A DNA stretch of 64,000 bases from the NCBI RefSeq assembly GCF_009914755.1, contig NC_060933.1. One strand, 5' to 3'. Position numbers and translations under genes: made by a program. Source of the DNA: the human T2T-CHM13v2.0 reference genome, Homo sapiens. A model generated the notes under the pieces. The model saw only the letters and a list, made by a program, of their open reading frames with translations, did no database searches and had not been told where the DNA came from. This document shows positions 3,000 to 36,413 of this stretch, piece after piece. Position 1 is the first letter of the stretch. The number at the start of each line of letters is the position of its first letter.

Positions 3000-12902
<9,903 letters not shown>

Positions 12903-13084
12903 ATATCCCACTGATAAAAGCATCAGATCTCATGAGACTTATTCAATATCATGAGAACAGTATGGGGGAAACTGCCCCAATAATTCAAATTATCTCCCAC
13001 TGAATCCCTCCCATAATATGTGGGAATTGTGGGAGTACAAGTCAAGATGAGATTTGAGTGGGGACACAGAGCCAAACCATATCA
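12903..13084 (-). mobile_element. THE1 LTR half
   Basis: ...GGGACACAGAGCCAAACCATATCA terminus; the other half is deleted at the L1PA junction. Confidence 0.85.
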
Positions 13085-14272
13085 AGCTGGTACTGTGACC
13101 TGGAGGACTGTCAGGTGAGAGTTCCTACTCATGACTAGTTCTGTACTTTCTATTGGTTGCCCTCAAGCTACTGACCAATTGGAATCACTGCTCACAGGGC
13201 CCTACTTGATATCTCATTGGCTGCCCACACTTAATCCTCACTCTGCTATTGCTGGTACCCAAAAGTTTGGACTTTTCCCTGTGACTTGCTGTTATTGAAA
13301 GGATGTCACCTGGAATCTGATCAGAGGGAGGGAAAATTGCAGAAACAGCAAACAGCCTTACCTGAGAGGCTCTTGGTGCCCTTTTCACCTGGCAGCCAGG
13401 GTGATCGGGTAGGGAGAATGGAGAAACTCAGAGGAGGTGATACTATCCTAAGACCCCACAGGAGGAAAGGTGTTCTGCACTGTTTTGATATTTCATTATA
13501 TTAAGGAAATGCTGTCCTTTTCAACTATAAAACCCGTTATAATTTTCTGACTCTACTTGGCATTAGTATTTTTTTTTCACAAATACCTCTCCCAACTTTT
13601 TACTTTTGAGTCAGGGTCTCACTCTCTCACCTAGACTTGAGTGCAGTGGCATGATCATTCCTCACTACAGCCCCAAACTCTGGGCTCAAGCAATCCTCCT
13701 GCCTCAGCTTCCCAAGTAGCTGGGACTACAAGCATGTGCCACCACACCCAGCTAGTTTAAAAATTTTTTTTTGTTGAGATGGGGTCTTGCTATGTTGCCC
13801 AGGCTGGGCTGGTCTCAAGCTCCTGGCCTCAAATGATCCTTCCACCTAGGACTCCCAAAGTGTTGGGATTACAGGAATGAGCCACTGTGCGTGGCTACCA
13901 CTTTTTTGACCTTACAGAATTCCTGTGAGCCTCCATCCACAAAAATATGGAAGCCTTAAATATTTTGGTTGAATTCATTCCTAATTTGCTACAAGGTATG
14001 AATGCAACATTTTCTGACAGAGAGTCATTACTGAAGGACCTACAACATTCAAGGGACTTGCTATCATTTCTTCTTCCTTTTGGTTTAGTTTCCTGTACAG
14101 TAAATTATGTATGAAAAATTAAGAATAAATTATATGATAGATAATAGTAATTATTTATTTGTTATGTAATCATTCTTTGCAATCTCTATTATACCTTTGC
14201 TGATGTCCAAGTCAGTCACCATGGGATATTAGAACCATGCAAAATCAGACTTAGTGTTTGCATTTTCATATG
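13085..14272 (+). pseudogene. Unprocessed relaxin/INSL4-like pseudogene (exon-1 3' end, intron with AluJ, exon 2, 3'UTR)
   Basis: Exon-1 relic LVL*PGGLS with donor CAG|GTGAGAG at 13114/13115. Intron 13165-13480 aligns to INSL4 intron 28820-29150. Acceptor TTACAG| at 13917. Exon 2 reads EFL*ASIHKNMEALNILVEFIPNLLQGMNATFSDRESLLKDLQHS, with an 18-nt exact match GAATTCATTCCTAATTTG (13971-13988 = 30796-30813). 14200-14272 aligns to INSL4 3'UTR 31028-31100. Confidence 0.88.
13597..13896 (-). mobile_element. AluJ
   Basis: Diverged antisense Alu with J-type CTCAAGCAATCCTCC; sits in the pseudogene pyrimidine tract. Confidence 0.85.
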
Positions 14273-15444
14273 TCCGTAAGAAACAGTCTTCCCAAAACTT
14301 TGTGTCAACAGTTAATCCTTTTTGCTAAAGAAGTTGTTCTGTCTTTTTATTAATGATATGAAGATATCAATAGTTTTTAAATCATATTTACTTTAAATTA
14401 ATCATAAAGTTTTTTTAATTACATTAACAAATATAATAACTTTATCCTGCCTAACTCCAGGTGCATAAAGACAACAAAACTGTTTTATGTACTTTGTCAA
14501 TTTAAATCATGTGAAAATAAAACCTCAAACCTTGCAATTTTCTGCTTGTGTCAGAGTGGACATACTTTGTATTATGGACATATTATTCGGAAACAACCAG
14601 AATATTTCCCAAATCTATTTTATTTGGAGTCTCATACCCAAATAAATTTGATTGTTGTTTAAAATAGTGGCCTTTTATGCTTCTAAGAGATCCAAGTCTG
14701 TATTGTTATATCAGAAAATCATTAGTCTTAAATGATTGCTTCTGTGTGTAACAGTCATAAATTAATAAGTGTATTCTCTGATGTGTAAGAAATAGCCTAC
14801 TTCTTTTTAATAAATGAAAGAAATTGAACTCTTCCACTGGGTGAAAAATTAATCTACAGACTTTTTTTTTAATGTTTTCCCTATTGAGTTGTGTCATGAA
14901 CCCTGGGTCTTAGTACCAACGCATCCAATATCTCAGGGCCCACCATGTTCAATGGCTCCTGCCTCAACACTCTCAGTGCTAATCTGAATGGACCCCTCTC
15001 TCAGTGATTTTCTCTCTGCATGGGTGCAAGAAAACTTTGTCCAAAGTTGCTGTCTCTATCCTGGGGTCCTACACATCTCCAACTCAAAGGTCTTCAACTC
15101 TCCATGGCTCTACCACTGAGCAGTGTACAGCAGAAACCAGGACTTGAACTAGATATAGATAAGAAATATTAATCTGTTTATATAATCTCTCACCTCCTTT
15201 CTTTGTCTTATATCTTGTGAGAGACCATTGCACAACATTTGGCTGAACAAGAATTTACAAATCATGGTAACTGTACCTTTAAGACTCCTTTTGACTTCCC
15301 TGTGATAGTTCACTCATTTGTCCTACTGGTTGGTGCATATGTCAAGGTTGCAACTTTTCCATTTCTTGATGGATGTATAGGCAACAAAAGCAATTAAAAT
15401 ACTCTCAATATATTGCAACAGGGTCTTTGGGCTGTGGATTGGAT

Positions 15445-25189: not shown

Positions 25190-25966
25190 CCTCCAGCTCC
25201 AGACTCTAGAGACAGTAATTGTAGTTTCAAATTAAGTATTCAGATAACTGGTAACAATTAATCAATCACCCATGGGAGTTCAAAGAAAGAAATTCATGGA
25301 AAGATACAATGTGATTTCTCCCAAGTATAAAAAAAACCTCCATGGGTGCTCTCCCAAGACTTAACAGTCAACCCTATAGGATGCCTGTGTTTCTCATCCT
25401 TCTCAGGATCAATGGAGGGCAGATGTAAGTACATACCTTTGAAGAAAGTTCCTTGTAAACTTCAAACATTGTTATACAAGCCTAAAGTGATGTTATTGGA
25501 ATTTTAATAGTGTTCACAGGACCTGGTTTAAACATCACTAGTCGTCTTTCTCTAATGAACAACTGATCCATCCACTCATCAAAATACTATGGATAGATAC
25601 ACAAGACAATATAGAAATCAATACAATATATTTTAATGTTTGGAAGAAAAAATACAAATAAATACGGAGTAAGTTAGGAGAAATATTAAATGTGGGAGTT
25701 GAGTCAGGCTGGTGGGAAAAATTTAAAGATAGTTATAAGAAAAAGATGCAAACCTTCTTGGAAGGCTGGAGGTGTTGCATAAGCTCCAGTAATAGATCAG
25801 GCTGGAGGCAGCCTAATCCTTACCTTGAGTTAATAGCTTAGGGCACAGATACAAAGGAATGTATAGTAGTTTATCTAAATAGCTTGTTTACACATGTGGT
25901 CTTAAGACCAACCTTTGATCAACCGCAGGTGCATAATTGCTCTCTACTCGGGAGGGTGGCAATGTC

Positions 25967-27636
25967 TACACTCTATTGGGCTCATATCTTAGATCCACTT
26001 TTCTTTTGCCCTGTCACTTGGGTATACAACCCCTTCCCAGCCTTTAATAACGTGACTGCTTAGCTAGGAGGGATAGATTTACCCCCAGTGGGGTTCCTCA
26101 ATAATGGCACACATTGGACTAAGGTGCCAGATAACACTACAGATCACTCTACTATCCTCCCATTGTGTGTAAATTATAAATGTTCTAACCCTTAGTGTGC
26201 ACCTACTGAAACACAATTATGGCTACATCATGGCAAAAGAAGTGCCTTAACAGTCTTAGCTGCAGGTAGCCTCAAAACGGAAATCAAGTCTGCTTTCCCA
26301 AACATTCCTTCCTGTGCTAAAGAACAAAGCCGGAAAAATAACGGATTCCACTTTAGCTGGGAGATCTGTCATGGGGAATAAGCTCATAGCCTCCAGTTAG
26401 GCAATTATAACATCCTAGACTGGAGCCCCTGTGGCCATTTGTAGGGCAGCCTTACTGATATCCTCATCCATCATGGCATCGATCACAGTTTCATAGCCTC
26501 GTCCCATTCCCTTATGATTTGGGCCGATGGGAGGATAGGATATCCCAGACCCCGAGTAAAGTTGATGCCTCCCCAAGACACTTTATGTTGCCTGGGACAT
26601 CTTAGCACCTCCCTTGACACCTGGCATGGGACATATCATAATTACAGTAACAACTATACTATAACCTTTATTCATAATCACACTGATCAGTCCCTAATTT
26701 GCAACTCCATCCATATGTTTTCCTTATGGGAACTAATATTTCTATTACAACCCAAAATTCCATGTTTGTGACCCGGGTGCAAGGACAGGCTTTGTTTGCC
26801 TCATGTACCACTAATTACAATATATCTAATTTAAATACTACTAGTGTCATGGTATTAAGGAGACAATCTGAGGCATTCCTACCCGTCAATTTGACACACT
26901 ATTGGCAAGGTTCCTCTTCCTTTGCCACCTTAGAATGTGCCCTATCCCAGGTCAGACCCAAAAGATTTATAGGCACACTTATAACCTTTATAGTCTCAGC
27001 CATAGTCATCCTAGCAACTGCTAGTGTGGCTATAGCATCTACTACCGAATCAGTGCAAACAGCTGCTTTTGTAGACAATTTGGCCAGAAATGTGTCTAAT
27101 GAACTTCTCTTACAGCAGGGTATAGATCAAGAGATTCTTGCACGTCTGCAAGCCCTCGAGGCTGCCTTGGAATTTGTGGGGGAGCGACAAGATGCCCTAG
27201 CATTCTGATAGCAATTAAACTGTGACTGGGAGCATAAACATATCTGTGTCACATTTTTACCTTGGAATCAATCAATACATAGTTGGGATGAGGTGAAACA
27301 ACACCTCTGGGGAAACTTTCATGACAATTTAACAGCAGACGTAAAGCAACTTAAAACTAAAATTTTAGAATCCCTTCACATGATAGATCTACATACTCAA
27401 CAAACAGCCATATGGAAAGGTGTGCAAGATCATTTCTCCTGGTTATACCCCCGATCCTGGGGGTCACACTTTGACTGGAAAGGAATGTTACTAATTATAC
27501 TCATGATTGTCTTACGTTATTTGCTAATTCTATGATGCAAAGCCGGAATAAAAGCAAAACCTAACAAACCTGTTGCTGCACACATCTGTACTCTTAAGTC
27601 AACAGAACCCGATGCAAAGAACAGAAAGGGGGGAGA
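25967..27636 (+). pseudogene. HERV-K-like env pseudogene (SU part + TM)
   Basis: TLYWAHILDP SU motif, furin-like RPKR, fusion peptide FIGTLITFIVSAIVILATASVA, heptad repeat, CDWEHKHIC loop and hydrophobic anchor. Frameshifts in SU; stops at 27206-27211 and 27533. Confidence 0.88.
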
Positions 27637-28130
27637 TGTGAGAGTTCAGTCAGGCTGGTGGGAAAATTTTTTCAGATAGTTATAAGAAAAAGACGCAAAC
27701 CTTTTTGAAACGCCGGAGGGGTTTGTATAAGCTCCAGTAATAGATCAGGCTGAAGGCAGCCTAATCCTTACCTTGAGTTAATAGCTTAAGGCACAGATAC
27801 AAATGAATGTAGTTTATCTAGTTTGTTTACTCATGTGGTCCTAAGACTAATCTTTGATCAACCGCGGGTGCATAATTGCTCTCTACTCGGGAGGTTGGCA
27901 ATGTCAATTACCTTCTAGTGGTGTTTACTCAAGACCTTCGTCATTTAATCTATGCTGAATAAATGTGAGCTTTGCTGGCTGATCGGGGCCACGGCTGCAA
28001 CTCTTTACAGCACCCTCCTTGGTGTCTGTAGGTGGCCCGGACCCTCAGCTGGACTGACAGGCAAACTATCTGTGTCAGTGTATGTTATTCATCCGTCGTT
28101 GGGTCAGGGTCTGTGGGACAGACCCCCGCA
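27637..28130 (+). promoter_or_regulatory. 3' LTR, reported placental regulatory element of INSL4
   Basis: Complete ~494-bp LTR (AATAAA 27958-27963) ending 482 bp before the INSL4 ATG. ERV-LTR control of placental INSL4 expression is prior knowledge. Confidence 0.8.
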
Positions 28131-28409: not shown

Positions 28410-28612
28410 TGTAGGTGGGTGGGAAAGGGGTGGAACTGACACCATTGACGCAAAAGCTGAGTAATAGCCCTAAGCAAATAAATGCCTGATGAAGGCATGC
28501 AGAAAGCAGTCTGGAGCCCAGAAGGGACACACCAGCACAGTCTGGTAGGCTACAGCAGCAAGTCTCTAAAGAAAGGCTGAGAACACCCAGAACAGGAGAG
28601 TTCAGGTCCAGG
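28410..28612 (+). promoter_or_regulatory. INSL4 proximal promoter and 5'UTR
   Basis: GT/GC-box tract 28414-28433, TGACGCAA (CRE|C/EBP-like) 28446-28453, TGAGTAA 28458-28464, TATA-like AAATAAAT 28476-28483, about 30 nt before a likely TSS near 28508. Confidence 0.6.
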
Positions 28613-28808
28613 ATGGCCAGCCTGTTCCGGTCCTATCTGCCAGCAATCTGGCTGCTGCTGAGCCAACTCCTTAGAGAAAGCCTAGCAGCAGAGCTGAGGG
28701 GATGTGGTCCCCGATTTGGAAAACACTTGCTGTCATATTGCCCCATGCCTGAGAAGACATTCACCACCACCCCAGGAGGGTGGCTGCTGGAATCTGGACG
28801 TCCCAAAG
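28613..28808 (+). CDS. INSL4: INSL4 coding exon 1 (signal peptide + B chain + start of C peptide)
   Basis: ATG at 28613; [43 protein letters not shown]...SGRPK matches placentin/EPIL. Phase-1 donor AAG|GTGAGA at 28808/28809. Confidence 0.98.
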
Positions 28809-30286
28809 GTGAGAGCCCTGGACTACCAAACAATCAGAATGAGGCCTGAAAAAACAGGCTCCAGATCTCATTGACTGCCTGTAGTCAACTCAGACTCTAC
28901 TGTGGCTAGTGCCTACAAGTTTGTGGTTTTTCATTGTAATGTGCTTTTATTAAAAGGGTCTCACCAGAAATCTCATGGGAAGTTGGGGGTAGAGGAGAAG
29001 CTGCAGGAAAAACAGAAGAACAGCCTCACCTTGGAGGCTCTTGGTGCCTTTCCCACCTGGCAGCCAGAGATACAGGGTGGAGAAAACAGGGAATCCTCAG
29101 AGAAGGTGACTATTCTCAAACACCAGCAGGAGGTGAGGTGTACTCCCAGACCCCCAGGAAAGCTGGGCAGGCCAGAAAACAGGTGTGATTGCAATGAGAT
29201 GCCTGGGCCAGGCATCTTCAATTAAGAAGAAAGGGGACAAACAGTGAGGTGATGAGCTGATTATCATTTCTGTTTATGCACCTATTGGCCTAGGGGCAGC
29301 ACACTGAGACCTCTGTTAGGTTCCTGGAATGTGAGATAAAGGGGGCTTAGATTTAATAACTCTCATCCTTTGTCATTAAGCTGGGCAGTGGTCTATGTCA
29401 CCAAAAACGTCCTCTTACAAAAAAGTTTTTTTTAATGCACACCAACAGAGCACCTTGCCTCCCATTTCTTTGAATCTACTCTTGTAGTGTGTTGAGAGAG
29501 ATGAGATGAAGAGAAAGAAAGTGGCCTGGATGACTAGAGGGGAAATTGAAGGGGACCAGAGACAAGGGAATTTCACTGTTCAGACCATCATAGCTGATTT
29601 GATTAGTGTTTTCAACATTTGAGACTGCAAAGCATTTTCTTTAAAAGCAAGATTTCAGAATTGAGGAAAGTTCAATACCAGGATAGTTTTCAAACTTTAC
29701 CAAGTAACAAGGTATTCATAAAGATAAATTGCCAGCTAAGTTAAAACTAGCAGGGGCAGTTTCGAAAAGAGATAGAGGCTACTATATTCTGTCTAATAGG
29801 TCGTATTAAGTTCTGAAAAGCTAAGTTAAATTACTAAACATTGTTTTACATTTAATACAAATGACACAGGTTTTGAACCAGCAATGTGTGACTCCAGAAC
29901 TGCTTCTTGTAACCCATATGCATACACTTCATTAAATCATTAAATGACTCTGTTTAAAGTTATCGTGCACAGTGAATGCACTTGGATTTTGTGTGATTTA
30001 TATAACGATTTCAAAGTTATTTCCTTTTTTTACATTATTAGTCAGAGCTTGTTTCATTTTACTATAAAATAAGGGAAGAATACCACAAAGTCCAAACAAT
30101 TTCTAATGCAAACTAAGGAAGAGCATGCTGTACTATAATTTCTATTTAAATTTCACTTTTTTTCAGTAAATAAGTGAAAATCCTCATTTAAATACTTTGA
30201 CAAATATAGATAAATTTAACAAGAAAAATGGAAAGTATTCATGGATAACAAATGTTAACATTTGGTGTCGACACATATAGATGTAT

Positions 30287-30319
30287 GTTGCTTCTCAGCC
30301 TTTTAGCTAAGATCCACTG
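30287..30319 (+). pseudogene. 3'-truncated U2 snRNA retrocopy in the INSL4 intron
   Basis: GTTGCTTCTCAGCCTTTTAGCTAAGATCCACTG vs U2 5' end ATCGCTTCTCGGCCTTTTGGCTAAGATCAAGTG; 12-bp TSD ATATAGATGTAT (30275-30286 / 30320-30331). Confidence 0.85.
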
Positions 30320-30742
30320 ATATAGATGTATAGATTTATGTGGATCAGATTTGAATATCTGAATCTTTCTATTAGAATAACTTGTGATTATAAAAAAAAT
30401 TCCCTATTGCTATCCAGTACATAATGCATTGAGGTTATCAATCAAAACAGTGTCAGGGAGAGTCAAAAGTGGTATGGTATAGGCATTTAGAGGGTCATTA
30501 GAAGAGTGCATAGAGGGGACAGGATGAGGAGTTAGCATATCCTTAATATTGTAGTATCTTAAAGTGCCCTACTCTAAGTAAGCTAAGTTGTTGAAATGTT
30601 AGGATACTTGCTGATTCTCTCTGGTGTTTAATTACATGGAGGCAATGGGTACATTGTGGTCTAGGCAAATTGTATAATTTTTCTGATCCTCTTTCACATG
30701 AATGTTTTTCCTCACCTTTCATTCCTCTCTTTTACTTCACAG

Positions 30743-30966
30743 AAATGGTGTCAACCTCCAACAACAAAGATGGACAAGCCTTAGGTACGACATCAGAATT
30801 CATTCCTAATTTGTCACCAGAGCTGAAGAAACCACTGTCTGAAGGGCAGCCATCATTGAAGAAAATAATACTTTCCCGCAAAAAGAGAAGTGGACGTCAC
30901 AGATTTGATCCATTCTGTTGTGAAGTAATTTGTGACGATGGAACTTCAGTTAAATTATGTACATAG
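30743..30966 (+). CDS. INSL4: INSL4 coding exon 2 (C peptide, RKKR cleavage site, A chain [15 protein letters not shown])
   Basis: Pyrimidine tract plus CAG| at 30742; G|AA rebuilds Glu; 196+224=420 nt = 139 aa + TAG. Insulin-family CC-x3-C-x8-C A chain. Confidence 0.98.
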
Positions 30967-31037
30967 TAGAGTAATCATGGACTGGACATCTCATCCATTC
31001 TCATATGTATTCTCAATGACAAATTCACTGATGCCCA

Positions 31038-31043
31038 ATTAAA
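31038..31043 (+). terminator. INSL4 polyadenylation signal (ATTAAA)
   Basis: ATTAAA ~70 nt after the stop codon, followed by T/G-rich sequence. Confidence 0.65.
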
Positions 31044-33019
31044 TGATTGCTGTTTATTAGAACATGAGAATCATTATTAGTATTCACATGTTTCACTTGC
31101 TCTGTACTAATATAGTCTCTCCAAATGGAGGAAGTTAGATAGATGGAATAAGTTCTAGTAGTTGATAGTACAATGGGGAAATTATACTTAACAATAATTC
31201 ACTGTATATTCCAAAATAGCTAGAAGAGAATTGTAATGATTCCAACACAAAAAAGATGAATGTTAGTTTGGATGCATATCCCAATTACCCTGATTTGATC
31301 ATTACACATTATATACACGTATCAAAATATCACATGTACTACAAAAATGTGTATAACTGTAATATGTGAACTACAAACTTACTGGAAATAAATTTTTAAA
31401 GTTTTACACACATAAACACATACGTTCACACACACTCACTCAAGTCTCTTCATTTTTCCTCTTTTCACACTAGAAGAAATGTAAGAGATAAAGGATCTAA
31501 CCATCTCTAACATCAGCTCATAGTACGGAGGAAAAGCAGTGAAGGAATGAACTGGTGGGAGAGGTATTAGGCATGTTCACCCTAGGGTAAACCCAGAGAC
31601 CTCCCTAGAACTTTGCCCAATGCATATCCTCCACCTGCCTCTCAGCACGCTGCCTTTAGACCTTCAATCATTCTATAAACTCCTCTTTTGTCCCTGGCAT
31701 TACTCCACATCCCCTCATCAAAGTGGTGAATTGGCACAAATACTGGCATTCCTCTGGCTACACATACCTCCTCCCTATGTGTCTCTAAATCCTAAATCAA
31801 AGAGTACATTTTATACTCTGTCAGTGAGGTTCTACTAGTTGTGTTTGTTTGTTTGCAGGCTAACTGAAGCTGCTACTACCTCATTATCAGGTCCTATAAA
31901 CTTAATTCAAGTGGCATGATTTGAGTAGCCCCCTGTGCCTGCCCATAAAGTGCTCTGAATCTAGTGTGGGACATGGAGAAGCAAAGGATAATAAGTGCAA
32001 TGATACTTGTAGGTCATCATAGAGACTGTAATGATCCACAGGAATCAGGGTCGTGTTTAATGCCAACATGTGAAAGAATAAATATACAGGGAACAGTGTA
32101 GGTAAGAGGAGAGAGCAAAATTTCCCTAAGGAAACTGATGGCTGATCTGCATCTTGAAAGACATCTAAGCAGAAGAGAGTGCAAAAAGGGACAAGTAGAA
32201 GCCCAGGAAAATGCACAAAGGCCTGGAAGCATAGCATGTGTGGAAACAGCCAGAGTCAGCAGGGCAGGAGGTGGTGTGGAGAAAAGGAATTGTCAAGATC
32301 TGGTTGGAATGGAGACAGGAGAGAGGATCTCAAACGATTCCACACAATGCAGCTATGGGGTTTAGGCTGCATCCTGGAGTAAGGAAGAACTGCTCATGAT
32401 CTTGATACATCTCTCATAAAGAACTTTTTCCTACCAATACTCTATTGAAGATGAAGAGGGATCATGGGAGTCATAGGGCAGAACTCATAGATTATACTGT
32501 ACAGTCTGAACTGTACCACCTGGTTTGCCTAGACTCCTCTAGATTGTTCTTTGAGAACAAAGGGGAGAAGCGCATAAGGTGTATTTCTTGACAGTAGTGT
32601 CGATCAATAAAATATCAATATTTTGGGTCTCTACGTTATTCATGATCAATGATTGAGTTTACTCTATGTGTCTATCAGTTTTCTAGGACTTTAGGATTCA
32701 GGAGAGAAAAAATAATAATTATGCTTTCATGGAGCTTCTACCTGGTTACTTGACTGACTCTGAACCTTCTCTTGGCACATGCATTCTATACATAATTCTA
32801 TTCTTTTAGTAAAAATAGAGGTATGAAAAGAGGATAATAGAGAAAGCTCCATAATTTTATCTGGTGTCTATCATTTCAATCTCTTAACCAGGAAATACCC
32901 AAAGACTGCTTCCAGGAGGATTTTTAGGAGATGGAAATATCTCTCACTCTTTGTCCCACTGCTTATAAACCTGCATGACACCCTAAAGTGACAGCAGGAC
33001 AGGCACCTAGAGTGGTTCC

Positions 33020-33816
33020 AAGGATGTATGAAGTCCTTCAGCTGCTTTAAGAAAGTACACAAACTGGTGGCTTAAGGCAATTGAAATACATTTTCTCCCA
33101 GTTCTGGAGGTTAGACATAGAAAGATGATGCACTTTCCGTAACAGGTACAGTATAATCCTCACTGGCTTCTGGTGGTTTGCTGTCAATCTTTGGCATTCC
33201 TTGGCTTGCAGGTGCCAATCTTCAGCCTCCACACTGTCCATACATGGTGTGCTCTCCGTTTCTGTGTGCACATTGTTTTCTTATGAGTACACTAGACATT
33301 TTGATTTAAAGGTCCACTCAGGCTATGATGACTTCATCTTAACTAATTATATCTGCAACAATTATTTTTATAAGCATATTCTGAAGGATTATTATCTTAG
33401 TCCATTTTCTGTTGCTAATAACAGAACACCTGAAATTGGGTAATTTATAAAGAAAATAAATTTATTTCTTACAATTAAGGAGTGTAGGAAGTGCCAGAGC
33501 CTGTCCTGGCATCTCATGAAGACTTTCTTTCTGATGGGAAATCTCTACTGGGTCTTGATGTGTTGCAGAGTATCACACAGCAAAAGTCCAGAGCATGCTA
33601 ACATACTTGCTTAGGTCCCCCTTCCTCTTTTTATATAAGCTACCATTTCACTCCTCTGATAATCCACCAATCCTTTAATTCATGAAAGGGTTAATCCCCT
33701 CATGAGAGCAGAGCTTTCATGACCCAATCACTACTTAAAGGCTCCAACTTTAATTCTGCCAAAATGGAGAGTAAGCTTCCAACACATGAAATTGTGGGAC
33801 ACATTCAAACCATGGC
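33020..33816 (-). mobile_element. Nested MaLR LTRs (MLT1-like + MST/MLT1A-like)
   Basis: MLT1 motifs (AAACTGGTGGCTTAA, GACTTCATCTTAACTAATTA), then ATCTTAGTCCATTTT...CAAACCATGGCA. Confidence 0.7.
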
Positions 33817-36413
33817 AAATGTTGGTTATGACTACAGTATGTCTTTTATGGGTCCTAGCTGAACCAAAGATACCTGAGGGAACACAGCAATTTACCTCTC
33901 CATTCTCTCTCTACAAGTTATTTAGAAATAAACCATTCCTCAGAGGACACAGAACACAAATATTTCTTCTAGTAAATATAAAATGGTACAGTGAAAATGG
34001 AAAAGCATTTGATAGTTTTTTTAAAAAAAACTAAATATGAAAATACTTTATAACCCAAAACTTTCACTACTAGATCTTTACCAAATATTCACACAAAATT
34101 ATTTATATGAATGTCCATAACAATGTTGGATTTTTTGTTAACACTTGGGCATTATGGAATGTCCATCATTATGTCTATAACATAACTATGAATGCTTCTT
34201 TATAGTAATGAAACACTGGAAACACCCCAATGCCCTTCATATATGAAGATTTAACAAAGTCTGGTATATCCATATCATAGAACACTACTCATCTATTAAA
34301 ATGAGCCAATTATTAATACACAAAACAACCTGGACAAATTTCAAGAAAACTAGGCTAAGTATAAATCATCGGTCACAAAAAGTAACATTTTGTGATTCCT
34401 TTTTATAAAATGTTCTTGAACAAAATTATAGAAAATAGGAATAATTTTTCAAGGTGAAGGCCAGGGAGTGGGGCACGAGTGGGTAGTAGGTGTGACTATA
34501 AGGATTGCTTGAGGTGCTGAAATAGATTTATATCATGCTTCTATCATGGCCAATATTCTGGTTTTGACATGGTACCATTGTTTGAAAAGATATAGTCATT
34601 GAGGACAACTGGGTAAAATGCATTCAGAATCTCTGTAAATTATTCCTTACAGGACATATATGACCCTACAATAATCACAAAATTAAAACTCTGGAAACAA
34701 CAAGAAAACAAACAAGCTAGTTCAAAAATGGGAAAATAACTTGAATATATATCTTGCATAAGAAGATACACAAATGACTTACAAGCACCTGAAAAGATGC
34801 TCAATATTATTAATCATTAAGGAAATGCACACAAAAACCACAATTAGGTATCATTTCACATTCATTAGGATGGTCACTATAAAAAGAACACAAAAACATA
34901 ATAGAAAACAACAAGTGTTTGCACATACATGTAGAAATTGGAAATCTTGTGCACTGTTGTTGGGAATGTAAAATGGTACAGCCATTGTGAAAACAGTATG
35001 GTAGTTCTTCAAAATAGAAAATGGAATTATGATATAAGCAGTAATTCCATTTTCAGCTATATATCCCAAAGTATTGAAAGCAGGGCCTCAACTAGATGTT
35101 TATAGACTCACGTTCAGAGCAGCATTATTCATATTACCTAAAAGGTGAAAGAAATACATGTATCCATTAATGCGTGAATGCATACACACAATTTGACATA
35201 TACATACAATGAAATGCTTTTGGTCTTGGAAAGAAATTCAGATACATGCTACAACATGGATGAACCATGAGGTTTTTATGCATACTTAAATATGCTAGTC
35301 ACAGAAGAATGAATATTATATTATTTCACATATATAAGATACGTAGAATACTAATATTTACAGAGACAGAGCATGGAATGGTGTTTTCCAAAACAAGGAG
35401 GGAAAAGTGAATAGGGATTCATTGTTCAATGGGTATATAGTTTCAGTTTTGCTAAAAGAAAAACAATATGAATGTAGTTAATACCCCTGAACTGGACATT
35501 TAACAGTGGTTTAGATGGTAAATTTTATGTTACATGTTTCCAATGTATTCACAACTTAAAAACTCATCAACATAGATGAAATTGGAGGACATTATTTGAA
35601 ATGAAATAATCCAGTCACAGAAAGAAAAATACCGCTTAAACTCACTTATAAGTGAGATCTAAAAAACTCAAACTTACAGAAGGAGAAAGTAGAATACTGG
35701 TTAGCACATTATTCAGTGGAAAGAGGAATTTGGAAGATGTTGGTCAAAGAATACAAAATTTCAGATAGAAGAATGATGTTCAAGAGACTTACTGTACAAC
35801 AAGGTAACTAAAGTTAATAAAGTATTGCATATTTGAAATTTGCTAAGAGAGTAGATTTTAAGTGTTCTCACGACAAAAAAACTATGTAAGATAAACCATA
35901 TGGTAATTAGCTCAATTCAGTCATTCCACAATGTATACCTCTTTTAAAATATCATCTTACAATTTTTATTTTTCAATTTAAAAATTTAGAGAATGATGTC
36001 AGCAAGATGGTAGACTAGGAAGCTCCAACTCTTGTTCTCCTACAGAAACATAAGAAAACACCCAGAAACTCTGGAAATAACCTTATAGAAGTTCCAGAAA
36101 ATAGTCAAAGACTTACAGCAACCAAATAAATTGTCACTCAAGAAGAAACCAGTTTCAAGATGGTAGAACAATTTTGCAATAATTTCCTGCCCTTCCCACA
36201 CCACTGGTGCAGCAATAATCTTGGTCTGGAAGTGATGGCAGCCCAGTTGTTAGTTTCCTCTCCCAAAGCGAAGGGAGCAGAGTAAACCTCATTTTCAAAT
36301 TCTTGTGTAGAGTTGAAGGCTATCTGAATGACAGGACTGTGTTTCCCCTAGCTTGGATTTTAGGCAGAAAAATCAGTGAGCACTGGTCATAAAACATGTG
36401 GGGAGAGCACAGG

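What the first reader, a model, noticed from the sequence alone, without database searches (positions are those of the whole stretch)
13085..14272. Hidden relaxin/INSL4-like ghost gene 15 kb upstream of INSL4
Seen in sequence: every part of a two-exon relaxin-family gene is present in the right order and phase. These are an exon-1 tail aligned without gaps to INSL4 (LVL*PGGLS vs WLLESGRPK), the same G|GTGAGAG donor, ~300 bp of intron homology, a TATAATTTTCTGA pre-acceptor motif, an AG acceptor, an exon 2 with EFIPNL, CAGTAAATTATGTA (cf. INSL4 CAGTTAAATTATGTA, 'KLC') and 3'UTR homology. In-frame TGA stops at 13096 and 13926 hide it from ORF finders. Inference: an extra, dead member of the INSL6-INSL4-RLN cluster. 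INSL4-like pseudogenes have been reported in comparative work, so whether this copy is new needs checking.
Basis: partly seen in the sequence, partly recalled or inferred. Interest (0 to 1): 0.85.

Follow-up and report, generated by a model that had tools for sequence, protein, structure and literature searches.

The report
Dead relaxin/INSL4-type gene relic upstream of INSL4
This stretch is the decayed, headless remains of an old extra copy of a relaxin/INSL4-type hormone gene, one of several unlisted relics in the human chromosome 9 relaxin cluster; it makes no hormone and matters only for the family's history.

Summary
Window 13085-~14470 (+) lines up, in order, with INSL4, RLN1 and RLN2. 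The matching parts are the last 30 nt of exon 1, the GTGAGAG donor, about 360 nt of 5' intron, the pre-acceptor tract with AG, a full-length INSL4-sized exon 2, and the 3'UTR/flank.

Genome-wide, the sequence matches only inside the chr9 relaxin cluster, so it is not a dispersed repeat.

It is dead:
- no promoter, start codon, signal peptide or B chain
- exon 1 cut at 13084 by a dispersed LTR-type repeat
- two in-frame TGAs
- the RKKR processing site lost
- 3 of 4 A-chain cysteine codons lost
- about 1.5 kb of intron missing and an Alu inserted

It is about as far from INSL4 (K80 0.54) as from RLN1/2 (0.56-0.58), and INSL4-RLN is 0.49-0.52. So it is an old separate lineage, not a recent INSL4 copy.

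Four more relics absent from the supplied gene table lie just outside the window. One is 89% identical to this one and supplies the missing promoter and exon 1.

It is an ordinary unprocessed pseudogene relic of modest evolutionary interest. I could not check whether it is already in print.

The parts
12906..13084 (-). Fragment of a dispersed LTR-type repeat. From recalled consensus it is the 5' end of a THE1/MaLR LTR on the minus strand. It forms the 5' boundary of the relic and replaces the rest of exon 1.
   Evidence: the genome search gave 3670 first-look candidates, of which 40 were scored. The 39 non-self copies are on many chromosomes at 88-91% identity, and most end at query base 179 (= 13084). 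The family name is recalled and comes from no tool.
13085..13114 (+). Last 30 nt of exon 1 (C-peptide start), with in-frame TGA at 13096-98.
   Evidence: aligns without gaps to the exon-1 ends of INSL4, RLN1/2, ghost D and ghost B. Ghost B is identical in 34 of 36 columns and has GGA where this copy has TGA.
13115..13476 (+). GT donor (GTGAGAG) and the 5' block of the intron.
   Evidence: 70.6% to the INSL4 intron (E 1.6e-29) and 69% to the RLN1 and RLN2 introns. 13116-13200 aligns to RLN1/2, ghost B and ghost D but is absent from INSL4.
13477..13589 (+). Rest of the intron. It has a short stretch that aligned to no paralogue, then the pre-acceptor block (from about 13536, with TATAATTTTCTGA at 13540). 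About 1.5 kb present in INSL4 (29145-30660) is missing here.
   Evidence: nothing in 13477-13535 matches INSL4. The pre-acceptor block aligns with INSL4 30665-30742, ghost D and RLN1/2.
13590..13896 (-). Alu-type insertion in the polypyrimidine tract before the acceptor.
   Evidence: NCBI masks 13672-13896 (hub table); 13597-13890 matches several other copies in the locus at 70-73%. The Alu name and orientation rest on recalled consensus.
13897..13917 (+). End of the intron: pyrimidine tract and AG acceptor (13916-17).
   Evidence: aligns with the acceptors of INSL4, ghost D and RLN1/2.
13918..14140 (+). Exon 2 coding equivalent (C peptide and A chain), the same length as in INSL4. Lesions:
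- TGA at 13926-28
- RKKR site replaced by R-D-L-L codons (14052-14063)
- A-chain Cys codons TGT changed to TCC (14091-93) and TAT (14106-08 and about 14133-35), with one TGT kept (14094-96)
- in-frame TGA at 14112-14
- a small indel
- INSL4 stop equivalent at 14138-40
   Evidence: Global alignment to INSL4 exon 2 gives 145 of 240 identical. The second half beats 500 of 500 shuffles. The 126-nt shorter form relative to RLN1/2 is shared with INSL4 and ghost D.
14141..14470 (+). 3'UTR and downstream flank relic.
   Evidence: 14175-14443 matches the ghost D 3' flank at 67% over 279 columns; multiple alignment with the 3' ends of INSL4, ghost D, ghost E and RLN1/2, including the column of the RLN AATAAA signal.
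28508..32393 (+). INSL4, the living paralogue in the window, used as comparator.
   Evidence: Hub annotation; the translation gives an intact 139-aa precursor.

Best explanation
Window 13085-~14470 (+) is an unprocessed, 5'-truncated pseudogene relic of a relaxin/INSL4-type gene. It was born by tandem duplication inside relaxin family locus B on chr9p24 and has long been dead.

Shown:
- It keeps the family's gene layout: end of exon 1, phase-1 GT...AG intron, exon 2, 3'UTR.
- It exists only in this cluster.
- It has no promoter, start codon, signal peptide or B chain.
- It carries stops, a lost processing site and lost cysteine codons, so it cannot encode a hormone.

Inferred:
- Its lineage split from INSL4 and RLN about when they split from each other. 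The literature places that split in the placental ancestor.
- Part of it was duplicated later, giving 'ghost B' at chr9:5273229-5273865. Ghost B is 88-89% identical over about 230-250 aligned bases and keeps the promoter and exon 1.
- Copy A then lost its 5' end at a junction with an LTR-type repeat and a 3'-truncated L1.
- It also lost about 1.5 kb of intron and gained an Alu.

Its most likely present role is none; it is neutral DNA.
For: - Collinear homology to INSL4: intron 70.6%, E 1.6e-29; exon 2 66.7%.
- Homology to RLN1 and RLN2: intron 69%; exon 2 70-72%.
- Seven-way intron and five-way exon/UTR alignments with shared donor and acceptor.
- Restricted to the cluster: 5 of 5 genome matches for 13085-13560, and 1 of 1 (self) for 13897-14300.
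- The 5' boundary is a dispersed repeat: 3670 candidates.
- No INSL4 exon-1 or B-chain match elsewhere in the window: after the exon-2 hit at E 0.014, the best other tblastn hit has E 0.63.
- Lesions are read directly from the sequence. The longest stop-to-stop frame over exon 2 is 61 aa.
- K80 distances: A-INSL4 0.535±0.038; A-RLN1/2 0.56-0.58; INSL4-RLN 0.49-0.52; A-B 0.137±0.025; RLN1-RLN2 0.071±0.009.
- ML tree: A+B 100% support on a long stem, otherwise star-like.
- The age of the INSL4-RLN split (placental ancestor) and of the RLN1/RLN2 split (29.6-44.2 Ma) come from PMC3971578 (Introduction and abstract).
Against: - No other species could be examined, so the ages rest on paralogue distances in one genome. 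Alignment error inflates old distances, and gene conversion deflates RLN1-RLN2: the two are 100% identical across the aligned 5' intron blocks and exon-1 tail.
- The placement of the lineage is unresolved: AU p is 0.62 versus 0.43 for the two main topologies.
- No outgroup could be aligned. INSL6 exon 2 shows no alignable C-peptide motif.
- The exon-1 tail is not significant on its own (20 of 36 identical to INSL4).
- Whether the LTR inserted into exon 1, or a deletion joined them, is not shown.
- No expression or conservation data were available, so a non-coding role is not excluded.
Confidence: 0.88

Rival explanations
1. A young, primate-specific duplicate of INSL4 itself that decayed quickly.
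For: It lies 14 kb upstream of INSL4 on the same strand. It shares the INSL4-sized exon 2 and the EFIPNL codons.
Against: - Identity to INSL4 is only 62-71% even in intron. RLN1/RLN2, duplicated 29.6-44.2 Ma according to PMC3971578, are 92-93% identical.
- The relic keeps intron sequence (13116-13200) that INSL4 lacks but RLN1/2 and ghost D have.
- Closer INSL4 relatives exist: ghost D and E, at 72-75%.
Confidence: 0.03
2. It is an RLN-derived relic (a dead relaxin copy), not an INSL4-type one.
For: - In the intron core it is slightly nearer to RLN1/2 (105 of 157, 66%) than to INSL4 (98 of 158, 62%).
- Blastn identity over the first part of exon 2 is 70-72% to RLN against 66.7% to INSL4.
- Its partner ghost B matches the RLN2 promoter and exon 1 at 70.9%.
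Against: - It shares with INSL4 and ghost D the exon 2 that is 126 nt shorter than in RLN1/2.
- The distal intron is nearer to INSL4 (101 of 142, 71%) than to RLN (95 of 142, 66%).
- Overall K80 is 0.535 to INSL4 against 0.56-0.58 to RLN, within error.
- The polarity of the length difference is unknown without an outgroup.
Confidence: 0.15
3. The relic has been reused as non-coding functional DNA, either an enhancer or alternative promoter in the old 5' intron block, or part of a non-coding transcript.
For: A few short islands in the 5' intron block are 0.83-0.88 identical across five old lineages, against 0.63 overall. One contains a CCAAT-type motif (CATTGGCTG) that is intact in A, ghost C and RLN1/2.
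Against: Such islands are expected from alignment anchoring. The same motif is mutated in INSL4, ghost B and ghost D. Overall divergence equals that expected for neutral DNA of this age. No expression, chromatin or cross-species data were available.
Confidence: 0.07
4. Chance similarity or a dispersed repeat.
For: The relic is flanked and interrupted by repeats (LTR, L1, Alu).
Against: E-values are 1.6e-29 locally and 1e-20 to 1e-24 genome-wide. Four blocks are collinear. All genome matches lie inside the cluster.
Confidence: 0.01

Closest known systems
INSL4 (placentin), window 28508-32393
   Same: Same strand and same two-exon, phase-1 layout with the same GTGAGAG donor. Exon 2 is the same length (gapless alignment, 145 of 240 identical). 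EFIPNL codons and the 3'UTR are homologous.
   Different: Only 62-71% identical. The relic has no promoter, start codon, signal peptide or B chain, and it carries stops and lost Cys codons. It keeps about 85 nt of 5' intron that INSL4 has lost, and lacks about 1.5 kb of mid-intron that INSL4 has.
RLN1 and RLN2 (chr9:5340-5345 kb and 5305-5310 kb, minus strand)
   Same: Homologous exon-1 end, donor, 5' intron (69% over 324 columns), the first about 120 nt of exon 2 (70-72%) and the 3' flank.
   Different: RLN exon 2 is 126 nt longer. RLN1/2 are intact and hit Pfam PF00049, while the relic does not. They lie on the opposite strand.
Ghost B, an unlisted relic at chr9:5273229-5273865 (window-equivalent 65229-65865, +)
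   Same: Nearest relative. It is 89% identical to 13084-13312 over 229-230 columns, and the two group with 100% support.
   Different: It is the complementary piece. It has the promoter with TATA box, the 5'UTR and a whole exon 1 (start codon ATG changed to AAG, several stops), and then only about 190 nt of intron. It ends at a 16-nt direct duplication. It has no exon 2.
Ghost D, an unlisted full-length INSL4-like pseudogene at about chr9:5198105-5201055 (minus strand), with the partial copy ghost E at chr9:5205958-5207061 (+)
   Same: A dead member of the same cluster with the short exon 2.
   Different: Ghost D is complete from promoter to 3' flank and clearly nearer to INSL4: 72% over a 2003-column alignment and K80 0.42. 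Ghost A is 0.61 from D.
INSL4 pseudogenes of non-catarrhine placentals (Arroyo, Hoffmann, Good and Opazo 2012, J Mol Evol)
   Same: The same kind of object: decayed RFLB paralogues used to infer the ancestral gene set.
   Different: Those are reported as orthologues of INSL4 in other species. I know that paper only from its title and from how PMC3971578 cites it; it is not held. Whether it or the 2012 Mol Phylogenet Evol paper lists the human relics is unknown.

Membership tests
Functional insulin/relaxin-superfamily prohormone gene | Start codon, signal peptide and B chain with two cysteines in exon 1 | tested here: not met
   Only 30 nt of exon 1 remain. tblastn with INSL4 finds no exon-1 match in the window outside INSL4 itself. 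blastn with ghost B exon 1 finds none upstream of 13084.
Functional insulin/relaxin-superfamily prohormone gene | A chain with four cysteines (CC...C...C) and a basic processing site before it | tested here: not met
   Under the alignments, 1 of 4 Cys codons is kept (TGT 14094-96). The RKKR site reads R-D-L-L.
Functional insulin/relaxin-superfamily prohormone gene | Open reading frame across both exons | tested here: not met
   In-frame TGAs at 13096, 13926 and 14112.
Functional insulin/relaxin-superfamily prohormone gene | Match to Pfam Insulin (PF00049) | tested here: inconclusive
   The relic's exon-2 translation gets no hit, but neither does the INSL4 exon-2 control. The genome scan finds RLN1/2, three other chromosome loci and a weak INSL6 hit, but neither INSL4 nor any relic.
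Unprocessed (duplicated) pseudogene of relaxin family locus B | Collinear homology of exon, intron and UTR to family members, with the intron retained at the same phase-1 position | tested here: met
Unprocessed (duplicated) pseudogene of relaxin family locus B | Lies inside the cluster and nowhere else in the genome | tested here: met
   It sits between INSL6 and INSL4 according to the hub table.
Unprocessed (duplicated) pseudogene of relaxin family locus B | Disabling lesions | tested here: met
   5' truncation at a repeat, stops, lost Cys codons and an indel.
Processed (retrotransposed) pseudogene | No intron, a poly(A) tail, and a dispersed location | tested here: not met
   The intron is retained with donor and acceptor, and the relic lies in the parental cluster.
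INSL4 clade specifically | Groups with INSL4 to the exclusion of RLN in a rooted tree | tested here: inconclusive
   The tree is unrooted and star-like. AU p is 0.62 for D+INSL4, 0.43 for A+INSL4 and 0.043 for A+D. INSL6 could not be aligned as an outgroup.
INSL4 clade specifically | Short C peptide (exon 2 126 nt shorter than in RLN) | tested here: met
   The polarity of the change is unknown.

The most novel reading that the evidence does not exclude
The A/B pair, and perhaps the small fragment C, are the last traces of one or two old relaxin-family paralogues with no living human counterpart. If so, the locus B array of the placental ancestor held more genes than RLN, INSL4 and INSL6. Intact orthologues might then still exist as unrecognised relaxin-like hormones in some mammals.
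Probability: 0.3. Interest if true: 0.55.

Novelty: new member of a known kind. Interest (0 to 1): 0.33.

Why it matters
The relaxin cluster on 9p24 is a textbook case of birth-and-death evolution. The inferred ancestral gene set has already been revised once using pseudogenes.

Five relics missing from the supplied RefSeq table are A, B, C, D and E. At least one lineage among them (A/B) is as far from INSL4 as from RLN. This would add data to that reconstruction and show where to look for intact orthologues in other mammals.

For human biology the relic is almost certainly inert. It should not be scored as a hidden gene.

Tried and rejected
- Missing exon 1. tblastn with INSL4 over the whole window found nothing upstream of 13084. 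blastn with ghost B's promoter and exon 1 over 201 kb of the locus also found nothing.
- Pfam on the exon-2 translation. No hit, but the INSL4 control also failed, so the test has no power.
- PF00049 scan of the genome. It detects no relic, and it does not detect INSL4 either.
- INSL6 as an outgroup. Its exon 2 shows no alignable C-peptide motif, and its intron gave no blastn match. The tree therefore stays unrooted.
- Topology test. It does not resolve A's position.
- Conserved islands in the intron. They are not convincing beyond alignment anchoring.
Not available, so I used stretches instead.
- Earlier findings. Closed.
- Large protein-database searches were not run. The relic scores only 26.6 bits against INSL4, far below what is significant among billions of proteins.
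- Literature. Eight searches found no held paper describing human locus-B relics. Four look-ups of the three key papers failed because they are not held.
- No mammalian genome other than this one can be reached with these tools, so no orthologue search was possible.

Full report
**What is there.** I read 12800-14600 and the INSL4 gene and compared them with blastn. Two collinear plus-strand matches stand out.
- 13211-13476 matches the INSL4 intron at 28865-29144: 70.6% over 282 columns, E 1.6e-29.
- 13905-14036 matches the start of INSL4 exon 2 at 30730-30861: 66.7% over 132 ungapped columns, E 1.2e-5.

tblastn with the INSL4 precursor (139 aa, translated from the window) finds the exon-2 relic at 13917-14102: 32% over 62 residues, E 0.014. 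It finds nothing resembling exon 1 anywhere else in the window; the next hit has E 0.63.

The longest stop-to-stop frame over exon 2 is 61 aa.

**Not a repeat, not chance.** A search of the whole genome with 13085-13560 returned 5 matches, all in chr9:5.22-5.35 Mb:
- the sequence itself
- a copy at 5273643-5273865 (89%)
- the INSL4 intron (71%)
- the RLN2 intron (69%)
- the RLN1 intron (69%)

The exon 2/3'UTR part (13897-14300) returned only itself. By contrast, 12906-13084 is a dispersed repeat, with 3670 first-look candidates. The 39 scored non-self copies are 88-91% identical, and most end at 13084. From recalled consensus this is the start of a THE1/MaLR LTR on the minus strand.

So the relic begins where a repeat ends. 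Upstream of that repeat lies a 3'-truncated L1 piece (11990-12905, masked by NCBI; 92% to another L1 in the locus). This junction looks like a deletion rather than a clean insertion, but that is inferred and not shown.

**Anatomy.** I fetched 137 kb around the window and aligned the relic with INSL4, RLN1, RLN2 and the other relics described below.
- Exon-1 tail, donor and 5' intron align across seven sequences. 13116-13200 aligns with RLN1/2, ghost B and ghost D but is missing in INSL4.
- After 13476 about 1.5 kb found in INSL4 is absent. The pre-acceptor block (from about 13536, including TATAATTTTCTGA) resumes and is split by an Alu-type insertion at about 13590-13896.
- Exon 2 aligns to INSL4 exon 2 over its whole length almost without gaps, 145 of 240 identical. 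The second half scores -8 against a shuffle mean of -30.1 (sd 5.6), and 0 of 500 shuffles reach it.
- An alignment that allows long gaps shows that the relic, INSL4 and ghost D share an exon 2 that is 126 nt shorter than in RLN1/2. In this alignment the A chains line up.
- Read this way, RKKR has become R-D-L-L, three of four A-chain TGT codons are TCC or TAT, and there is an in-frame TGA at 14112. The INSL4 stop corresponds to 14138-40.
- 3'UTR and flank homology runs to about 14443-14470.

**Other relics in the cluster.** These lie outside the window. The chromosome coordinate is 5208000 plus the window coordinate.

| Relic | Location | Strand | What it holds |
|---|---|---|---|
| Ghost B | 5273229-5273865 | + | Promoter with TATA box, 5'UTR, a whole decayed exon 1 (ATG changed to AAG, stops), and about 190 nt of intron. 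89% identical to 13084-13312. Ends at a 16-nt direct duplication. |
| Ghost C | 5277112-5277286 | - | A 175-nt piece of the 5' intron. 74% to ghost A, 72% to RLN. |
| Ghost D | about 5198105-5201055 | - | A full-length INSL4-like pseudogene, 72% over a 2003-column alignment. Start codon, donor and frame are all broken. |
| Ghost E | 5205958-5207061 | + | INSL4-type mid-intron plus 3'UTR, 73-83%. |

Searching the 201 kb with the INSL4, RLN2 and ghost D genes found no further copies. The gene table supplied with the finding lists none of these relics. A, INSL4 and B lie on the plus strand. D, INSL6, C, RLN2 and RLN1 lie on the minus strand.

**Relationships and age.** The table gives K80 distances on a concatenated alignment of 1150 columns.

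| Pair | K80 distance |
|---|---|
| A-INSL4 | 0.535±0.038 |
| A-RLN1/2 | 0.56-0.58 |
| A-D | 0.61 |
| A-C | 0.49±0.06 |
| INSL4-RLN | 0.49-0.52 |
| D-INSL4 | 0.42 |
| D-E | 0.32 |
| A-B | 0.137±0.025 |
| RLN1-RLN2 | 0.071±0.009 |

The ML tree joins A+B (100%) on a long stem and gives ((D,E),INSL4) 80-88% support; otherwise it is star-like. AU tests keep both D+INSL4 (p 0.62) and A+INSL4 (p 0.43), and marginally reject A+D (p 0.043).

PMC3971578 (abstract, Introduction and Results part 1 read) states that INSL4 arose by duplication in the placental ancestor. It dates RLN1/RLN2 to 29.6-44.2 Ma.

On that scale the A/B lineage is about as old as the INSL4-RLN split. The A-B duplication falls somewhere within primate history, roughly 30-85 Ma depending on the calibration used. 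That range is my own rough inference. RLN1 and RLN2 are 100% identical across the aligned 5' intron blocks, so gene conversion makes them a poor clock.

INSL6 could not serve as an outgroup. This means neither the root nor the polarity of the 126-nt length difference is known.

**How it works.** It does not work as a gene. It is a non-processed pseudogene relic, the product of tandem duplication followed by decay. The decay steps were truncation at a repeat junction, an internal deletion and an Alu insertion. A reused non-coding role cannot be excluded, but nothing seen here points to one.

**Known or new.** No held paper describes relics in the human cluster; eight searches found none. Wilkinson et al. 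2005 (PMC551602, passages only) state that searches of the human genome found no novel relaxin-like peptides. That statement concerns coding genes.

The papers most likely to mention such relics are not held. They are Arroyo et al. 2012 in J Mol Evol, Arroyo et al. 2012 in Mol Phylogenet Evol, and Park et al. 2008 in Genome Res. The methods of PMC3971578 mention indexing pseudogenes with a 'ps' suffix, and its Table S1 is a PDF I could not read. Prior description therefore remains possible, above all for the full-length ghost D.

**Verdict.** This is an ordinary kind of object, an unprocessed pseudogene relic. It has modest value for the history of the relaxin family.

Noticed in passing
outside the window: chr9:5198105-5201055 (window-equivalent -9895..-6945), minus strand; loci L019/L020: A full-length INSL4-like pseudogene ('ghost D') lies between INSL6 and the window. 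It is 72% identical to INSL4 over a 2003-column alignment spanning most of the intron, exon 2 and the 3'UTR. The start codon is ATA, the donor is GC, and exon 2 has an in-frame TAG. It is not in the supplied gene table.
   Followed up: partly
outside the window: chr9:5205958-5207061 (window-equivalent -2042..-939), plus strand; locus L020: A partial INSL4-type relic ('ghost E') holds mid-intron (73% to INSL4 29767-30517) joined to the 3'UTR/flank (80-83%). Exon 2 is missing. It is nearest to ghost D (K80 0.32).
   Followed up: partly
outside the window: L006 1229-1865 (chr9:5273229-5273865), plus strand: 'Ghost B' holds a promoter, TATA box and complete decayed exon 1 of the same lineage as the finding, 89% identical over the shared 229 bases. 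It ends at a 16-nt direct duplication (ATTGAAAGGATTTCAC twice). A and B are overlapping, complementary pieces in the same orientation 52 kb apart, with INSL4 between them. How that arrangement arose is unexplained.
   Followed up: partly
outside the window: L006 5112-5286 (chr9:5277112-5277286), minus strand: 'Ghost C' is a 175-nt piece of relaxin-family 5' intron next to another LTR-type repeat (L006 4665-5023). It is 60-67% identical to all other lineages in the multiple alignment.
   Followed up: partly
window 25690-25966 and 27636-27905: Two direct repeats, 88% identical and about 1.9 kb apart, lie just upstream of INSL4. The second overlaps the RefSeq 'mobile_genetic_element/promoter' feature (27785-28130). 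They could be two copies of one repeat, or the two LTRs of one element.
   Followed up: no
window 31133-32986 versus 7005-8837, and 33677-33990 versus 8848-9203: Most of the INSL4 3'UTR is a repeat (L1-like by recalled sequence), 85% identical to another copy in the window.
   Followed up: no
L008 and L009 (RLN2 and RLN1 5' introns): RLN1 and RLN2 are 100% identical across the aligned exon-1 tail and 5' intron blocks, against 92% over the whole 5.4-kb genes. This looks like a gene-conversion tract.
   Followed up: no
window 13195-13206 and the aligned columns in the paralogues: A CCAAT-type motif (CATTGGCTG) is intact in ghost A, ghost C and RLN1/2 but mutated in INSL4, ghost B and ghost D. 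It is one of the best-conserved 12-mers of the intron alignment (0.83 against 0.63 overall).
   Followed up: partly
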